From assembly GCA_900541835.1 (NCBI GenBank), contig UQLL01000001.1, positions 43,915-107,914 on the forward strand: a stretch of 64,000 bases of DNA, given 5' to 3'. The translations under genes and the position numbers were made by a program. Source of the stretch: an uncultured Porphyromonadaceae bacterium (GTDB lineage Bacteria; Bacteroidota; Bacteroidia; Bacteroidales; Muribaculaceae). Under the pieces are notes generated by a model. That model worked only from the letters and a program-made list of their open reading frames with translations, did no database searches and was not told the DNA's origin. This document shows positions 5,249-29,963 of the stretch, in pieces (position 1 is the first letter of the stretch; each line of letters begins with the position of its first letter).

Positions 5249-5285
5249 TTTCCTTTGCAATTGGCGCCCGCTTTAGCGCGGCGCA
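5249..5285 (+). promoter_or_regulatory. Conserved roughly 38-nt motif, copy A (TTTCCTTTGCAATTGGCGCCCGCTTTAGCGCGGCGCA), with GC-rich hairpin GCGCCCGC-TTTA-GCGCGGCGC
   Basis: Near-identical to copy B (34 of 37 nt) and related to copies C and D. Lies between the pyrK start and the merR 3' end, overlapping the last codons of merR. Confidence 0.5.
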
Positions 5286-12894: not shown

Positions 12895-14223
12895 TCAGCG
12901 GTTTCGATGCTTGGCGGAATTGGTATACCTGGCGTAAATCTCGGCCTCGCGGCGCTTGGCCTCGGCTATGTCGGCGGCGTTCTTGGGGTCGACGCCATAC
13001 TTGCGCAGGTCGGGAACCACTACGCGGGTACCGGGCTTGATGCGGTTGGGATGCCCCAGGATGGCCTTGTTCTCCTCGTAGATGTAGGGCCAGAAGTGCT
13101 GGTTGCCATAGTGCTGCCGTGCGATGGTGGTGAGGTAGCGGGTGGTGCTGACGGTGTCGTAGACTTTTTTAGTGTCGCTGGGCTGTGTGGGCGCCTGGTC
13201 GCTTGCGGGGACGGATGCACCTACAGTATCGGGGGTGGATGCGGGCTTTGCTGTGTCCGGTGCGATGGTGCGTACGGGTGTGTCGAGCACTTCTTTCTGA
13301 ACCATCTGAACTGTGTCTGCATCCTGAACGTACCGAGCTATGAAGCGCGGGGTATTAGGACATAGAAGCAGAAGCAACACGGCGATGATGCCAATCAGCA
13401 GCAGGGCGCAGAGGAAACCGATTACGAACCCGAAGCGGCGGTGATGGCGGGCATGCTTACGATGATGGAGGCGAATCTCGTCCTCCTGCTCTATCTCGCG
13501 AGCGATAGGCGCTTCTATAGGACCTTCCTCCTGGTCGAGGACCTGCTGTCCGACATCTATGGAGTCCTCGGGGAGTGGTTCGGGCTCGGGGACGCATTCC
13601 GTCTCCGAAGCGGATGTCTCCTCGGGTTCGGACACATCTGCTATATATGTGCCATCGTCGGCGGGGTGTTCGGGGTTTTCCTTGACGTCTACTGGGGCGG
13701 ATGCACCATGGTGTGTCCCGACATCTCCCGCGTTCTCCTTGACGAATGGGGCTAAGGGCGCCAAGGCAGGAGCTGTCACGACGGTATCTGTTACTCCGGG
13801 CCCTTCCTCGACAGTGGTCTCGGGCTCCGGCTCGTTGTCCTCACGGCCGCCGGGAACGTGCGTAACCACGGCATCGGCTTCGAGCATCTCGTCGGTGAGG
13901 TCGTCGCTGAGTTCCACGGCCTCAAAAGCGGCGAATGGCTCGTTGACGGCAGCCGCCAGCTCCTTAGAAGGGACGAAGGTGAGCTTGGTGTGTGCCGACA
14001 GGGTGATGACGCGACCAGTGTTAACGTCCACGCTCTTGCGCTCGCCCATGCGCTGGACCTTGAAGGTGCCCACACCTTTGAGGCGCACCTGTTCCCCCTC
14101 TGCAAGTGAACTTGCAATGCCGGCAAACAATGCCCGCAGGAAATCGTCGACGTCACGGCGTGGCAGGCCGGTGCGGTCCGCTATCAGCCTACAGGCCTCG
14201 GAGAAAGTGATCTTCTGCTCCAT
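12895..14223 (-). CDS. HU-domain / transmembrane / LysM-domain protein (Bacteroidetes-specific HU-like fusion)
   Basis: N-terminal HU/IHF-like DNA-binding fold (about 95 aa), an acidic P/E-rich linker, a His/Arg patch, one TM helix (FGFVIGFLCALLLIGIIAVLLLLL) and a C-terminal LysM-like domain (YDTVSTTRYLTTIARQHYGNQHFWPYIY). Confidence 0.8.
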   Translation of the reverse strand: MEQKITFSEACRLIADRTGLPRRDVDDFLRALFAGIASSLAEGEQVRLKGVGTFKVQRMGERKSVDVNTGRVITLSAHTKLTFVPSKELAAAVNEPFAAFEAVELSDDLTDEMLEADAVVTHVPGGREDNEPEPETTVEEGPGVTDTVVTAPALAPLAPFVKENAGDVGTHHGASAPVDVKENPEHPADDGTYIADVSEPEETSASETECVPEPEPLPEDSIDVGQQVLDQEEGPIEAPIAREIEQEDEIRLHHRKHARHHRRFGFVIGFLCALLLIGIIAVLLLLLCPNTPRFIARYVQDADTVQMVQKEVLDTPVRTIAPDTAKPASTPDTVGASVPASDQAPTQPSDTKKVYDTVSTTRYLTTIARQHYGNQHFWPYIYEENKAILGHPNRIKPGTRVVVPDLRKYGVDPKNAADIAEAKRREAEIYARYTNSAKHRNR

Positions 14224-18330: not shown

Positions 18331-18363
18331 CTTGTATGAGGGTGTTGCAAAATCCGGCGAATC

Positions 18364-18387
18364 GTAGGGATGCACCCTGGTGCATCC
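18364..18387. repeat. REP-like palindrome GTAGGGATGCACC-CTG-GTGCATCC
   Basis: Perfect inverted repeat with the family core sequence. Confidence 0.8.
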
Positions 18388-18410
18388 GCTCTGCTTTATT
18401 GATTGTCAGC

Positions 18411-18434
18411 GGCTGCACCAGGGTGCAGCCCTAC
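18411..18434. repeat. REP-like palindrome GGCTGCACC-AGG-GTGCAGCCCTAC
   Basis: Perfect inverted repeat, a variant of the family. Confidence 0.75.
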
Positions 18435-18483
18435 AATCTGACCGAAATTCTGAATTTTGACACACCCTCGTGAGAGTTGAGAA

Positions 18484-19464
18484 TTGAATACACACACAAA
18501 GCATTTTCCTTTGCGATTGACGCCCGCTTTAGCGCGGTGCACCTCTCGCTATCGCCTTAGGTGCCTGCTGGCTGTTGCCGTGGGGATGTTGCTCACCTCC
18601 TGCTTCACCGGCGTGGAGGGCACACGGCGCGTGGTGATGAGCAAGAACGATGTCGCCGCCACCCGGCCCGGCGCCGAGGAACAGCTAGTGGCAGGACTCA
18701 CTGGCACACCCCTCGCCCAGTGGCAACCGGGTCGCGAGTTCATAGTGCTCGACGACCGTGCGGCGCTGATGTTCGACCCTCACACCCTCCCCGCTGACCC
18801 TCTCAGCCTGCACCTGAGCGGCGACACCCTGCGCTACCAGGGCAACGACCGGCGTGTCACCCCCGGACTTGATACCCTCACCGTGCTCCGCTTCGCCGAC
18901 AGCGTCCGCACCTACTCCCTGCCCTTGCGGCAAAGCCGTATCACCAGCATGGAGATGCCCATGATGGCAGACGCAGCCATAGTCCACCGTCTCGACACCA
19001 TGCTCCGCGGCCGCACACTCTGGGTGCGCAACCCCATGTGGCACACCGCCGACTCGCTGACCGTGCAGGGTCTCAAATACTCGCCCGTGCGGGTGGAAAA
19101 GGTATTGCCCGGCGTGAACGTCTACCCTGTCCGCATATGCTTCCGCACCGATAGCCTCAGTGGCTGGCTTCCCGTTGCGCTTCCCGGCGCCGGACCGGCC
19201 TCCCGCAGCTTTGCCCAGCAGTTCTCGCTCACAGACCCTCGTTCCAACTATCCCGCCATCACCGACGAGGCGTGGAGACTCATCCAGCAGCAGCGCGTGG
19301 CCGAAGGCATGACTAAGGACGAGGCCAGGCTCTCACTCGGCGCCCCAAAGGACGTCTCGCAGGGACATAACTCGGCCCTCCTTTACGAGCTCTGGCAATA
19401 CCCCGACGGCTCGTACCTTATGTTCTGCGACGGCCTGCTCCAGCGCTTCAAGCTCGCCCGTTAG
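18484..19464 (+). CDS. Hypothetical lipoprotein
   Basis: Lipobox LLTSC after a hydrophobic stretch, with no recognisable domain. The N-terminal 40 codons overlap motif copy B (18504-18541), so the true start is uncertain. Confidence 0.6.
   Translation: MNTHTKHFPLRLTPALARCTSRYRLRCLLAVAVGMLLTSCFTGVEGTRRVVMSKNDVAATRPGAEEQLVAGLTGTPLAQWQPGREFIVLDDRAALMFDPHTLPADPLSLHLSGDTLRYQGNDRRVTPGLDTLTVLRFADSVRTYSLPLRQSRITSMEMPMMADAAIVHRLDTMLRGRTLWVRNPMWHTADSLTVQGLKYSPVRVEKVLPGVNVYPVRICFRTDSLSGWLPVALPGAGPASRSFAQQFSLTDPRSNYPAITDEAWRLIQQQRVAEGMTKDEARLSLGAPKDVSQGHNSALLYELWQYPDGSYLMFCDGLLQRFKLAR
18504..18541 (+). promoter_or_regulatory. Conserved roughly 38-nt motif, copy B (TTTTCCTTTGCGATTGACGCCCGCTTTAGCGCGGTGCA)
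   Basis: Identical to copy A at 34 of 37 positions. A G:C pair in the copy A hairpin stem is G:T (a G-U wobble) here. Confidence 0.5.
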
Positions 19465-19489: not shown

Positions 19490-19527
19490 TTTTCTTTTGC
19501 ATTTGGCGCACACTTCAGCGCCGCGCT
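19490..19527 (+). promoter_or_regulatory. Conserved motif, copy C (TTTTCTTTTGCATTTGGCGCACACTTCAGCGCCGCGCT), upstream of murB
   Basis: Same TTTGCAxTTGGCGC head followed by a GC hairpin. The murB ATG is 9 nt downstream. Confidence 0.45.
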
Positions 19528-21582: not shown

Positions 21583-21594
21583 TTCTCGGTTTGC

Positions 21595-21619
21595 GGACGC
21601 ACCGTGGCGCGTCCCTACA
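21595..21619. repeat. REP-like palindrome GGACGCACC-GTG-GCGCGTCCCTACA
   Basis: Family member in the intergenic gap between the small membrane protein gene and bcp. Confidence 0.75.
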
Positions 21620-23629: not shown

Positions 23630-23653
23630 GTAGGGACGCACCCTGGTGCGTCC
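23630..23653. repeat. REP-like palindrome GTAGGGACGCACC-CTG-GTGCGTCC
   Basis: Perfect 11-bp arms. First member of an inverted doublet. Confidence 0.85.
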
Positions 23654-23683
23654 GAAAGAGAGTCAGAGTTGTTGTCGGTGGTG

Positions 23684-23707
23684 GACGCGTTAGGGTGCGT
23701 CCCTACA
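23684..23707. repeat. REP-like element GGACGCGTTAGGGTGCGTCCCTACA (degenerate left arm)
   Basis: Second member of the doublet, 30 bp from the first. Resembles an E. coli BIME doublet. Confidence 0.7.
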
Positions 23708-28292: not shown

Positions 28293-28315
28293 ACGCGCCC
28301 CCCAATGCTGTGGCA

Positions 28316-28334
28316 ACGCACCCTGGCGCGTCCG
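28316..28334. repeat. REP-like element AACGCACCCTGGCGCGTCC (partial)
   Basis: Family core. Paired in inverted orientation with the copy at 28463-28487. Confidence 0.6.
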
Positions 28335-28462
28335 AGACCGACGCATGAGCCGCTCTGAAGCGGACACCAATAACAAACCAAATGCCTCGCCTGCCCTGAT
28401 AGTCGATACCGGGACAGGCGGGGTTTCTTATCAGTCCACTTTGGCCTTCTGCCGCCTATCAC

Positions 28463-28487
28463 GGACGCGCCAGGGTGCGTCCTTACA
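28463..28487. repeat. REP-like palindrome GGACGCGCC-AGG-GTGCGTCCTTACA
   Basis: Family member immediately upstream of the DEAD-box helicase promoter. Confidence 0.75.
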
Positions 28488-28520
28488 AGGCGATGCACCC
28501 AAAGTCTCAACTTTTTTTTG

Positions 28521-28528
28521 TAATTTTG
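28521..28528 (+). promoter_or_regulatory. -7 box TAATTTTG for the DEAD-box helicase gene
   Basis: TTTTTTTTGTAATTTTGCAGCC, with the ATG only 8 nt downstream of the box. The same 22-mer recurs at 51701-51722. Confidence 0.5.
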
Positions 28529-28535
28529 CAGCCTA

Positions 28536-29963
28536 ATGAGATTCAGCGATACAGAATTGAACGAATTCGTGCTGGAGGCTGTGGATACCATGGGCTTCGA
28601 CACGCTTACCCCCATACAGGAAGCCTCCATACCGCCACTGCTCGAAGGACGCGACCTCATCGGCGTGGCCCAGACCGGCACCGGCAAGACGGCCGCCTTC
28701 CTGCTCCCCGTGCTCAACGAGCTCAGCTACGGCGACTATCCACAGGAGCGCATCAACTGCCTTATCATGGCCCCTACCCGCGAGCTTGCCAAGCAGATTG
28801 ACGAACAGCTGCAGGGCTTCAGTTACTTCGTGCCCGTCAGCTCGTCGGCCGTATACGGCGGCAACGACGGCCCCGAGTTTGCCCGCCAGCGCCAGGGTCT
28901 CAAGATGGGTGCCGACATCATCGTAGCCACTCCCGGACGACTCATCTCCCACATCTCCATGGGATACGTCGACCTTAGCGAGGTCAGCTTCTTCATCCTC
29001 GACGAGGCGGACCGCATGCTCGACATGGGCTTCTACGACGACATCATGCAGATAGCCTCCTACCTGCCCCGCGACCGCCAGACCATCATGTTCTCGGCCA
29101 CCATGCCCGACAAGATCCAGCGCCTGGCAAAGTCCATCCTTAACGACCCGGTGCGCGTGGAGATAGCCGTCAGCAAGCCGGCCGAGAACATCCGCCAGGA
29201 GGTCGTATACCTCTACGAGACGCGAAAGCTTGATGCCGTCAAGGAGATATTCGCGGGCTACGAGGAGCCGGAACGCAGCATCATCTTCGCCTCCTCCAAG
29301 CTCAAGGTCAAGGAGCTGGCCCGCACCCTGCGTCAGAAGGGTTACAAGGTGGCCGAAATGCACTCCGACCTGGACCAGAGCCAACGCGACGAAGTGATGC
29401 ACAACTTCCGCAACGGCAGCGTGAAGCTGCTGGTGGCCACCGACATCGTGGCACGCGGCATCGACATCGACGACATAGCGCTGGTGATGAACTACGACGT
29501 GCCGCGCGAGGCCGAGGACTATGTGCACCGCATCGGCCGCACGGCCCGCGCCGGAGCCTCAGGCCGCGCCATCACCCTGGTCAACGACAAGGACCTCGGC
29601 GCCTTCCGCCGCATCGAGAAATTCCTGGAGAAGAAAGTGCCCGTGCTCGAACTGAGCTGCTCGGCCGATCTCAATGCAGGGACACACCATGGTGCGTCCG
29701 CCACCCGCTCCGACCGTTCCCGCGGCGACCGCCGGGGCCAGCGCCGCGGCAAAGAGCCAAACCGCAGAGGCCAGGAAACACCCCGTCGTAAAAGCACCAG
29801 GCGAAATAATGCCTCTGCCACCGCCGCGCCCCCGGCATCGCCCGATTCCGCATCTAAAGCAGCCAACCAGCCATCTACAGCCACTCCCGCCGTCGAAGTC
29901 CCTGCACAGCACAAGACCCGCCGGCGCCGACGCAAACCACAACCCAAGCCCACCCAGGAATGA
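28536..29963 (+). CDS. DEAD-box ATP-dependent RNA helicase with an Arg-rich C-terminal tail
   Basis: Q-motif, GTGKT, DEAD, SAT and HRIGRTAR motifs, then a basic low-complexity tail. A degenerate REP copy is in-frame at 29679-29699. Confidence 0.9.
29679..29699. repeat. Degenerate REP-like element GGGACACACC-ATG-GTGCGTCC inside the helicase coding sequence
   Basis: Encodes GTHHGAS in-frame within the disordered tail. Confidence 0.55.

What the first reader, a model, noticed from the sequence alone, without database searches (positions are those of the whole stretch)
18338..18469. About 130-bp MITE-like element with imperfect terminal inverted repeats, present twice in opposite orientation (18338-18469 and 60927-61053)
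The two loci align over their whole length when one is reverse-complemented (GGGTGTGTCAAAATTCARAATTTCGGTCAGATYGTAGGG...AATCAATAAAG...GATTCGCCGGATTTTGCAACA). The two ends are inverted repeats of each other (GAGGGTGTKKCAAAATYC...). Copy 1 carries two intact REP palindromes; in copy 2 they have decayed. This looks like a non-autonomous transposable element that packages the REP hairpins, which would explain how the palindrome family spreads.
Basis: seen in the sequence. Interest (0 to 1): 0.7.

Follow-up and report, generated by a model that had tools for sequence, protein, structure and literature searches.

The report
Capped REP-doublet mobile hairpin element
The two ~130-bp repeats are real copies of a small non-coding mobile element of a gut Muribaculaceae bacterium: two inverted REP palindromes (a REPIN) between conserved end caps. 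One copy is still present or absent among strains of the species, which makes it a variant of a known kind of element.

Summary
Windows 18338-18469 (+) and 60927-61053 (-) are two copies of one ~130-nt element. Copy 1 is intact; the centre of copy 2 has decayed.

The element is an inverted doublet of GTAG-type REP palindromes (a REPIN) with long arms ending in 16-24-nt inverted caps (GAGGGTGTKKCAAAAT). It folds into a single long hairpin.

It belongs to a dispersed family. I found at least 12 further intergenic sites in the same species (Lepagella sp., Muribaculaceae) and in relatives. All copies share the same left/right asymmetries, so the whole composite is copied as a unit.

Copy 1 is polymorphic within the species. 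Many conspecific contigs carry a bare 20-nt REP hairpin at exactly that position, with identical flanks and no target-site duplication. More distant relatives have nothing there. Copy 2 is fixed in the 10 strains examined.

The lack of duplications, the GTAG feet and the precise hairpin-for-hairpin swaps point to a REP-associated tyrosine (Y1/HUH) transposase rather than a DDE transposase. I could not locate that gene.

The caps also occur alone or around other palindromes in other Bacteroidales and in phage-like contigs. Most REPs in the window lack caps, so the caps do not explain how REPs spread.

I rate it a new variant of a known kind, of moderate interest.

The parts
18338..18469 (+). 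Copy 1: intact 132-nt capped REPIN, lying between the purL stop (18330) and the downstream lipoprotein gene
   Evidence: It is 94-97% identical to copies at other loci. It is present in only some conspecific strains.
18338..18353 (+). Left cap, GAGGGTGTTGCAAAAT
   Evidence: The same 'TTGC' variant sits on the left side of all family members.
18354..18363 (+). Left linker, CCGGCGAATC
   Evidence: Conserved across family copies.
18364..18389 (+). Left REP: GTAG foot, hairpin GGATGCACC-CT-GGTGCATCC, then GC
   Evidence: (D2, D9, I11).
18390..18408 (+). REPIN loop or spacer, TCTGCTTTATTGATTGTCA
   Evidence: The TTTATTGATT core is shared by all family copies, including copy 2.
18409..18434 (-). Right REP, inverted: GTAG foot plus hairpin GGCTGCACC-CT-GGTGCAGCC when read on the minus strand
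   Evidence: (D4, I11).
18435..18469 (+). Right arm: linker AATCTGACCGAAATTC, then cap TGAATTTTGACACACCCTC
   Evidence: The last 24 nt are identical to the right arm in a Prevotellaceae MAG (L003).
60927..61053 (-). Copy 2: decayed 127-nt capped REPIN in the divergent intergenic region between sod (60283-60867, -) and a lipoprotein gene (61163-62923, +)
   Evidence: It is fixed in 10 conspecific contigs, and variation is concentrated in its centre.
23630..23706 (.). Uncapped REP doublet of the same REP family (context: REPs spread without caps)
   Evidence: Fixed in 10 strains.
21591..21618 (.). Uncapped single REP (context)
28310..28486 (.). Two uncapped REPs about 150 nt apart (context)
51599..51674 (.). 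Uncapped REP doublet (context)
56235..56262 (.). Uncapped consensus REP, GTAGGGACGCACCCTGGTGCGTCC (context)
   Evidence: (I17).

Best explanation
**What it is.** The element is a non-coding, non-autonomous mobile element of the REPIN type.
- Two GTAG-footed REP hairpins lie in inverted orientation around a conserved ~19-nt loop.
- They are extended on both sides by linkers and by 16-24-nt inverted caps.
- In single-stranded DNA the whole ~130 nt folds into one long hairpin.

**How it moves (inferred).**
- It is mobilised in trans by a REP-associated tyrosine transposase (RAYT; Y1 HUH enzyme) encoded elsewhere in the genome.
- Such enzymes cut and rejoin single-stranded DNA at the base of REP-like hairpins. 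They leave no target-site duplication.
- The composite is copied as a unit.
- New copies land in intergenic DNA immediately 3' of a GTAG-like foot. At least twice a copy has exactly replaced a resident REP hairpin.

**How it decays.**
- By collapse of the doublet into a single 'double-foot' REP.
- By point mutation, as in copy 2.

**Shown versus inferred.** The architecture, the family, copying as a unit, polymorphism with precise borders, and the absence of duplications are shown. The identity of the enzyme and the cut sites are inferred.
For: **1. Architecture**
- Inverted GTAG REPs, and a long hairpin at z = -8.1.
- The consensus fold of 12 copies is the same single hairpin, with 31 pairs.

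**2. REP type**
- The REPs (GTAG+GGAC...GTCC, 8-9-bp stem, short loop) match those tabulated next to subclass 2.4 RAYT genes. Examples are GTAGGGACGCACTGCGTGCGTCC and the Cytophaga hutchinsonii REPs (PMC6006769 Table S1).
- That subclass is described as abundant in Bacteroidetes.

**3. Dispersed family**
- Nine metagenome loci match a pattern designed to exclude the two window loci. Further copies lie within those loci.
- All copies are intergenic.

**4. Copied as a unit**
- Every copy has the left cap TTGC against the right cap GTC.
- Every copy has the same 8-nt arm indel and the same loop.
- Copies usually have the left REP GGATGCACC against the right REP GGCTGCACC.

**5. Recent mobility with precise borders**
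- In conspecific contigs 99.3-100% identical over 14.5 kb, the only indel of 5 nt or more is at 18338/18469.
- There the 132-nt element alternates with the bare hairpin GGACGCACCACGGTGCGTCC. Four of 10 contigs carry the element; in another set, 3 of 17 places do.
- A second precise swap is seen in L026/L042: GATTGTAG|composite|GCTAATCAAT, where a canonical copy has GATTGTAG|REP hairpin|GCTGATAATCAAT.

**6. No target-site duplication, but a flank preference**
- No duplication at 12 sites.
- 14 of 24 ends are preceded by A[G/T], against a background of 0.10 (P about 1e-8).
- The feet include GTAT, GTAG (twice), GCAG, GGAT and GAAT.

**7. Predicted decay path observed**
- An orthologous site holds a full copy in L032 and a 43-nt central deletion in L027, giving a double-foot REP.
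- L025 has the same collapsed form.
- PMC6006769 describes this route.

**8. Mechanistic background**
- TnpA(REP) cleaves and rejoins REPs and needs the tetranucleotide 5' of the hairpin foot (PMC6006769).
Against: - **No RAYT gene was found.** None is in the window or in about 0.6 Mb of fetched related DNA. I could not search the whole genome.
- **The cleavage model does not follow the IS608 paradigm.** There, cleavage is not between the guide and the hairpin. The inferred cut positions (directly after the GTAG-like foot and directly after the hairpin) are therefore only a reading of the junctions.
- **Independent insertions are not excluded.** Two separate insertions (one REP, one composite) into the same unobserved empty site would give the same two alleles at copy 1.
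- **The caps are unexplained by REPIN biology.** They are more conserved across genera than the REP stems, and they occur alone.
- **Covariation support is thin.** Only 2 of 31 pairs show compensatory change.
- **End definitions are partly by eye.** Some element ends used for the flank statistic rest on fuzzy matching.
Confidence: 0.65

Rival explanations
1. It is a classical MITE: a deletion derivative of an insertion sequence. Its terminal inverted repeats (GAGGGTGTGTCAAAAT) would be bound by a DDE transposase, and the REPs would be passenger DNA.
For: - The ends are 16-18-nt inverted repeats and the size is about 130 bp.
- The same ends enclose different interiors in other genomes. L003 has other REPs, L018/L024 have another palindrome, and L001 and L004-6 have nothing. 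This resembles a MITE family with variable cargo.
Against: - No target-site duplication at any of 12 sites, nor at the filled/alternative allele pair.
- Repeat units carrying the caps in other genomes are only about 39-59 nt. No long element or transposase ORF is bounded by them.
- Insertions precisely replace hairpins next to GTAG-like feet, which DDE transposition does not do.
Confidence: 0.08
2. The caps are an independent short hairpin, a terminator-like stem GAGGGTG/CACCCTC that travels with horizontally transferred DNA in Bacteroidales. A REPIN once landed in its loop. The composite and similar mosaics then spread or rearrange mainly by recombination at hairpins and repeats, not by a dedicated transposase.
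For: - Cap-only hairpins followed by T-runs sit just after stop codons or at variable junctions (L042/L046; viral contigs L018-L022; L002-L005).
- Composites lie at borders of strain-variable DNA.
  - A 2.3-kb low-GC island is bracketed by two inverted copies, and it is absent from 6 strains.
  - The L029/L033 synteny break falls exactly at the element end.
Against: - There is no sequence homology at the borders of the copy 1 swap that could drive homologous recombination.
- All composites share derived asymmetries and are 90-97% identical at unrelated sites, which points to replicative spread.
- Neither the composite nor the 37-mer was found in viral, plasmid or phage collections.
Confidence: 0.15
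3. It is a selected functional element, such as a transcription terminator or attenuator, an mRNA-stabilising hairpin, a small RNA gene or an outward promoter. It would be maintained for regulating neighbouring genes, and the copies would exist because of that function.
For: - The hairpin is very stable.
- Copy 1 lies 8 nt after the purL stop, between genes that abut in relatives.
- The outer arms of copy 2 are conserved while its centre decays.
- Both window copies have the long right arm facing the downstream gene. That arm contains GAATTTTG, one mismatch from the Bacteroidetes -7 motif TAnnTTTG (my reading of the sequence; the motif is from my own knowledge).
Against: - No Rfam family matches. 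Only generic hairpin (miRNA) models hit, below threshold.
- There is no T-run after either window copy.
- Copy 2 lies between divergent genes.
- Copies occur in both orientations and in all gene arrangements.
- Copy 1 is dispensable in most strains.
Confidence: 0.07
4. The similarity reflects a local segmental duplication confined to these two loci.
For: Only two copies are present in the 64-kb window.
Against: - There are at least 12 further sites with unrelated flanks.
- Similarity stops exactly at the element ends.
Confidence: 0.01

Closest known systems
REPINs (REP doublets forming hairpins) mobilised by RAYTs (Bertels & Rainey 2011, PMC3116915; E. coli BIMEs)
   Same: - Two inverted GTAG REPs around a short spacer, folding into a long hairpin.
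- Intergenic and multi-copy, with no target-site duplication.
- The doublet is copied as the unit.
- Decay to singlets.
   Different: - The arms extend 26-35 nt beyond the GTAG feet and end in conserved caps.
- The caps are shared with other Bacteroidales genera that have different REPs.
- The host is a gut Muribaculaceae rather than a proteobacterium.
- The cognate RAYT was not located.
REPs associated with subclass 2.4 TnpA(REP)/RAYT (Bertels group 4), including 'double-foot' REPs (Quentin et al. 2018, PMC6006769)
   Same: - REP form: GTAG plus a G/C-rich foot, an 8-9-bp stem and a 3-5-nt loop.
- Near-identical stems are listed there (GTAGGGACGCAC...GTGCGTCC).
- Double-foot forms arise by central deletion of an inverted dimer, as seen in L025 and L027.
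   Different: - That work lists REPs next to the transposase gene. Here the gene was not seen.
- The caps are not in its table.
Pseudomonas putida/fluorescens composite repeats made of degenerate GTAG-1 REPs joined to unrelated stem-loop sequences, flanking RAYT genes and present in hundreds of copies (Di Nocera et al. 2013, PMC3733652)
   Same: A REP is fused to an unrelated inverted-repeat module, and the fusion is amplified as a unit.
   Different: - The sequences and the phylum differ.
- Here the REPs inside are intact.
- Here the added module also exists alone in other genomes.
TIRYT/TIRtron terminal repeats (Di Nocera 2013; subclass 2.1 of Quentin 2018)
   Same: Inverted repeats associated with Y1 transposases, forming moderately abundant repeat families.
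   Different: - The defining motif GGGGWSAS is not present in GAGGGTGTGTCAAAAT.
- Those inverted repeats are unrelated to GTAG REPs.
Bacterial MITEs with long imperfect palindromes (Correia/NEMIS, ERIC, RUP)
   Same: - About 100-150 bp with terminal inverted repeats.
- Intergenic, transcribed into hairpins, and with variants carrying internal insertions or deletions.
   Different: - Those make target-site duplications (for example TA) and derive from DDE insertion sequences.
- This element makes none and contains GTAG REPs.
IS200/IS605 (IS608) single-strand 'peel and paste' transposition
   Same: - Hairpin-dependent recognition.
- Insertion 3' of a specific tetranucleotide with no duplication.
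- A preference for a 5' flanking tetranucleotide.
   Different: - This element has no transposase gene.
- The apparent cut lies directly at the hairpin base, next to a GTAG-like foot.

Membership tests
REPIN (REP doublet forming a hairpin) | [quoted passage not shown] | tested here: met
   - 30-nt arms, 90% complementary, 17 nt apart (I11).
- MFE -41.3 kcal/mol, z = -8.1.
- The consensus fold of 12 copies gives the same hairpin.
REPIN (REP doublet forming a hairpin) | REP units carry a conserved 5' GTAG tetranucleotide at the hairpin foot | tested here: met
   GTAG at 18364-18367, and CTAC at 18431-18434 on the plus strand. The REP family in the window has GTAG or GCAG feet.
REPIN (REP doublet forming a hairpin) | Dispersed, multi-copy, extragenic | tested here: met
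   At least 12 further intergenic sites. At least 8 sites are in the same species.
REPIN (REP doublet forming a hairpin) | Evidence of mobility without target-site duplication | tested here: met
   The copy 1 site alternates between the composite and a bare REP hairpin, with identical flanks. No duplication at 12 sites.
REPIN (REP doublet forming a hairpin) | A cognate RAYT (Y1 HUH transposase) gene in the same genome, usually flanked by the same REPs | not testable with these tools
   - None found in the window or the fetched loci (regex; HMM; Pfam).
Subclass 2.4 RAYT-type REP (Quentin 2018) | GT[AG]G foot, G/C pairs at the stem base, about 23-28 nt, and double-foot variants | tested here: met
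   - Window REP consensus GTAGGGACGCACCCTGGTGCGTCC against the tabulated GTAGGGACGCACTGCGTGCGTCC and similar entries.
- Double-foot copies in L025 and L027.
MITE (DDE-transposase-dependent) | Terminal inverted repeats on a non-coding element under 300 bp | tested here: met
MITE (DDE-transposase-dependent) | Target-site duplication flanking each copy | tested here: not met
   Flanks at 12 sites show no direct repeats. The allele pair at copy 1 has no duplicated base beyond an ambiguous G...C.
MITE (DDE-transposase-dependent) | A parent insertion sequence with the same inverted repeats that encodes the transposase | tested here: inconclusive
   - No long element is bounded by the caps in any fetched locus. 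Repeat units there are 39-59 nt.
- Whole genomes were not searched.
TIRYT/TIRtron terminal repeats | Inverted repeat carrying the GGGGWSAS motif and flanking a Y1 transposase gene | tested here: not met
   The cap is GAGGGTGTGTCAAAAT, which has no GGGGWSAS (direct reading; motif from PMC3733652).
Intrinsic transcription terminator | G+C-rich hairpin immediately followed by a T-run | tested here: not met
   - Copy 1 is followed by GTGAGAGTTG and copy 2 by CAAGTCGAGG.
- Cap-only hairpins elsewhere do have T-runs.
Any curated RNA family (Rfam 15) | A match at the gathering threshold | tested here: not met
   No hit in the window. Only sub-threshold generic hairpin (miRNA) models match at 18359-18439.

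The most novel reading that the evidence does not exclude
**The reading.** The element may move by hairpin swapping. A Y1-type enzyme would treat the whole capped composite as one giant footless REP hairpin and exchange it precisely for a resident hairpin lying 3' of a GTAG-like foot. The resident hairpin could be a REP or even a terminator.

**The caps.** On this reading the caps, which are conserved across Bacteroidales genera whose REP stems differ, define a previously undescribed substrate class.

**Possible cargo.** Two inverted composites can bracket foreign DNA and perhaps mobilise it. The example is the 2.3-kb low-GC island carrying a C10 peptidase gene, which is present or absent among strains.
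Probability: 0.2. Interest if true: 0.7.

Novelty: new variant of a known kind. Interest (0 to 1): 0.45.

Why it matters
- **Taxonomic reach.** REPIN/RAYT systems have been studied almost entirely in Proteobacteria. This is a well-resolved family in an abundant human-gut Muribaculaceae.
- **A natural before-and-after pair.** The bare REP and the 132-nt composite sit at the same nucleotide position. That fixes the borders of a recent event to within 1 nt, which is rare for REP-type elements. It makes the cut-site question directly testable with oligonucleotides and a recombinant transposase.
- **Strain-level genome change.** The element sits in promoter or operon junctions (purL-lipoprotein, upstream of sod) and at borders of strain-variable islands. 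It may therefore contribute to strain-level expression differences and genome rearrangement in gut Bacteroidales.
- **Assembly artefacts.** It breaks short-read assemblies: two contigs end inside it.

Tried and rejected
**Searches that led nowhere**
- **Known RNA family.** Rfam at gathering threshold found nothing. The E-value scan found only generic hairpin models.
- **Literature search for the cap sequence.** No paper holds it. A broad search for REP or MITE work in Bacteroidales returned nothing useful.
- **Finding the RAYT.**
  - Two regex scans and a local HMM, built from 120 flavobacterial RayT proteins, were run over all fetched DNA.
  - Pfam was run on poorly called window regions. It found SmpB, rhamnose-pathway genes and a beta-lactamase-family protein, but no Y1 transposase.
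  - A RayT query written from memory passed NCBIfam NF047646. It returned only Flavobacteriaceae proteins among the listed hits.
  - A RayT-profile scan of viral contigs found no relative.
- **Other collections.** The composite and the 37-nt cap palindrome are absent from viral contigs, plasmids and phages.

**Ideas rejected**
- **Independent REPIN insertions into pre-existing cap hairpins at each site.** All copies share the same derived left/right cap difference, arm indel and loop.
- **The bare-REP allele as a deletion derivative of the composite.** Its stem and loop differ from both internal REPs, and two separate deletions plus compensating substitutions would be needed.
- **TIRYT-type inverted repeats.** The defining motif is absent.
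- **The 17-mer viral scan as strong evidence.** It yields about as many hits as chance would by my rough estimate. Only those with a matching left arm (L018-L022, L024) are real hairpins. L017 and L023 are probably chance matches.

Full report
**1.

- Reading both loci and aligning one against the reverse complement of the other shows one element of about 130 nt at 18338-18469 (+) and 60927-61053 (-).
- The outer parts are nearly identical. The right 50 nt are 92% complementary and the left 20 nt GTTGCAAAATCCGGCGAATC are identical. The centre has diverged (I1/I2).
- The terminal motif with up to 3 mismatches occurs three times in the window, against 0.06 expected.
- Copy 1 contains two intact GTAG-footed REP palindromes in inverted orientation (18364-18387 and 18411-18434).
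- As single-stranded DNA, copy 1 folds into one long hairpin of -41.3 kcal/mol, z = -8.1.
- Copy 2 keeps the loop core TTTATTGATT, but its left REP is degenerate and its right REP has lost about 12 nt. It folds more weakly.
- The window holds about ten more REPs or REP pairs of the same family (consensus GTAGGGACGCACCCTGGTGCGTCC) that lack the terminal repeats.

**2. Host and setting**

- The window's exact superoxide dismutase is named by NCBI as from a Lepagella sp. MAG, family Muribaculaceae. The window is about 60% G+C.
- Copy 1 lies 8 nt after the purL stop and before a lipoprotein gene.
- Copy 2 lies between the divergently transcribed sod gene and a WG-repeat lipoprotein gene.
- No Rfam family matches.

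**3. It is a dispersed family copied as a unit**

- I scanned metagenome contigs with a pattern for the right arm whose last two positions exclude both window loci. It returned nine loci of 55-64% G+C.
- All nine have the same architecture. The order is cap GAGGGTGTTGCAAAAT, linker CCGGCGAATC, REP, loop CTCTACTTTATTGATTATCA, inverted REP, linker AATCTGACCGAAATTY, cap TGAATTTTGACACACCCTC.
- Comparing the fetched loci with one another revealed further copies. In total there are at least 12 sites besides the two in the window, and all are intergenic.
- Assembly GCA_902477565.1 holds both a window-type region (L069) and the gltD locus (L045). At least eight sites therefore belong to the window's own species.
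- Every copy shares the same derived asymmetries.
  - The left cap reads TTGC where the right cap reads GTC.
  - There is an 8-nt indel between the arms.
  - The loop is the same.
  - The left REP is usually GGATGCACC and the right REP GGCTGCACC.
- The composite, caps included, is therefore the replicating unit. This rejects the idea that REPINs entered pre-existing hairpins independently at each site.
- The consensus structure of 12 copies is the single long hairpin. The copies are too similar for much covariation: 2 of 31 pairs show compensatory change.

**4. Mobility is recent and its borders are exact**

- More distant relatives (60-70% protein identity) have purL and the lipoprotein gene abutting or overlapping, with no element.
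- Within the species, ten long contigs are 99.3-100% identical to the window over 14.5 kb. They differ structurally only at 18338/18469.
  - Four carry the 132-nt element.
  - Six carry a bare REP hairpin instead (alignment). Their sequence is ...CTGACTTGTAT|GGACGCACCACGGTGCGTCC|GTGAGAGTTG...
- In a second set, 14 places have the bare hairpin and 3 have the composite. Two of those three contigs end inside the element.
- There is no target-site duplication and no border homology.
- All other REPs in that stretch are fixed.
- Copy 2 is fixed in ten strains, and its variation is concentrated in the decayed centre.

**5. Further junctions point to hairpin-directed, foot-adjacent integration**

- In L026/L042 a full composite lies at GATTGTAG|composite|GCTAATCAAT. 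A canonical copy reads GATTGTAG|REP hairpin|GCTGATAATCAAT at that point. A resident copy's REP hairpin has been replaced exactly, and its GTAG foot and loop are left in place.
- L029 shows the same foot junction.
- Over 12 sites, 14 of 24 ends are preceded by A[G/T], against a background of 0.10 (P about 1e-8). Eleven of 12 elements have such a foot on at least one side. The feet are GTAT, GTAG, GCAG, GGAT and GAAT.
- Caveats: some ends were set by fuzzy matching, and a 2-nt extension of the inverted repeat could contribute to the signal.

**6. Decay**

- An orthologous site (flanks 98.5% identical) holds a full copy in L032. In L027 the same site holds a copy with a 43-nt central deletion between the TGCACC repeats of the two REPs, which gives a double-foot single REP.
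- L025 has the same collapsed form.
- Quentin et al. propose exactly this origin for double-foot REPs (PMC6006769).

**7. Mechanism**

- The REPs are of the type listed next to subclass 2.4 TnpA(REP)/RAYT genes. That subclass is described as abundant in Bacteroidetes.
- RAYTs cleave and rejoin REPs and need the tetranucleotide 5' of the hairpin foot.
- Together with the absence of duplications and the foot-adjacent, hairpin-exact junctions, the best explanation is mobilisation in trans by a RAYT-type Y1 HUH enzyme acting on single-stranded DNA.
- The enzyme itself is inferred. No Y1 gene is in the window or in any fetched locus, and I could not scan the whole genome.
- Two independent insertions into one unobserved empty site would also give the two alleles at copy 1.

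**8. The caps**

- A scan of species-representative genomes for the right cap found six loci in four other Bacteroidales MAGs of 38-53% G+C.
  - In four loci the two caps abut as a 37-nt perfect palindrome, GAGGGTGTGTCAAAATTTTGAATTTTGACACACCCTC.
  - In a Prevotellaceae MAG (L003) the same caps enclose a different REP pair.
  - L002 shares the REP and right arm of L003.
- Phage-like contigs carry shorter cap hairpins followed by T-runs, and one carries an unrelated palindrome between the caps. Some of those 17-mer hits are probably chance.
- These units are only about 39-59 nt and lie just downstream of genes.
- The caps are thus a module in their own right. They are terminator-like when alone, and more conserved across genera than the REP stems.
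- Why they are conserved is not explained. The nearest precedent is the Pseudomonas fusions of degenerate GTAG REPs with unrelated stem-loops, which were amplified to hundreds of copies (PMC3733652).
- The caps do not carry the TIRYT motif GGGGWSAS.

**9. Strain-variable DNA**

- At the gltD locus, six strains have a 137-nt intergenic region with a G+C-rich terminator hairpin.
- Other strains have the inner 28 nt of that hairpin replaced by about 2.7 kb. The order of that segment is:
  - a cap-type terminator;
  - a composite;
  - a 2.3-kb island of 31-48% G+C, encoding a C10 peptidase with an I69 inhibitor domain and a second lipoprotein;
  - a nested composite in the opposite orientation;
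  - a double-foot hairpin.
- L029 and L033 (99.3% identical) diverge exactly at the element's right end.
- Whether paired composites mobilise cargo or merely accumulate at island borders is open.

**10. Verdict**

- The element is a capped REPIN rather than a DDE-type MITE, and the caps are not what spreads REPs in general.
- It is a new variant of a known kind.
- Its main value is the natural allele pair, which pins the event borders to within 1 nt in an abundant gut commensal.

Noticed in passing
L026:1559-4225 (also L042:7425-10200); empty alleles at L037-L041 and L045:7401-7538: Two composites in inverted orientation bracket a 2.3-kb low-GC island (C10 peptidase with I69 inhibitor domain, plus a 243-aa lipoprotein). 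The island is present, partial or absent among conspecific strains. In the filled alleles it replaces the inner 28 nt of a terminator hairpin downstream of gltD.
   Followed up: partly
L001:6806-6842, L004:2783-2819, L005:125-161, L006:829-865, L003:2916-3089, L002:724-784: The caps occur in other Bacteroidales MAGs (38-53% GC). In some they form a stand-alone 37-nt perfect palindrome. In others they enclose a different, species-specific REP pair. The right 24 nt are identical to those in the window's element.
   Followed up: partly
L018/L024, L019-L022 (viral contigs): Short cap-type hairpins (GAGGGTG..TGAATTTTGACA..CACCC) followed by T-runs. L020-L022 share one flank and then diverge at the hairpin. 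L018/L024 carry an unrelated palindrome (CCACAGATTACAC...GTGTAATCTGTGG) between the caps. Several lie at contig ends.
   Followed up: partly
window 5249-5285, 18505-18541, 19491-19527: A 37-nt motif, TTTCCTTTGCRATTGRCGCCCGCTTTAGCGCGGYGCA, occurs three times at 81-100% identity. Each copy lies at or just upstream of a gene start, and one is directly downstream of copy 1. It could be a shared leader, promoter or signal-peptide-coding segment. It is unexplained.
   Followed up: no
window 13695-13722, 29676-29703, 56235-56262: Three REPs appear to lie inside long open reading frames. For example, one is in the C-terminal part of the 475-aa DEAD-box helicase gene as called in conspecific contigs. 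These may be intragenic REPs, as reported for other phyla.
   Followed up: no
window 28503-28533 and 51696-51726: A 31-nt repeat at 90% identity, AGTYTCRASTTTTTTTTGTAATTTTGCAGCC, contains a Bacteroidetes-type TAnnTTTG promoter motif. In both places it lies about 20 nt from a REP.
   Followed up: no
L043:7425-7500: At the gltD island border, one strain has another long palindrome, GAACTGCACCCCAAAAGTT...AACTTTTGGGGTGCAGTTC, in place of the left composite. This may be a second hairpin element family.
   Followed up: no
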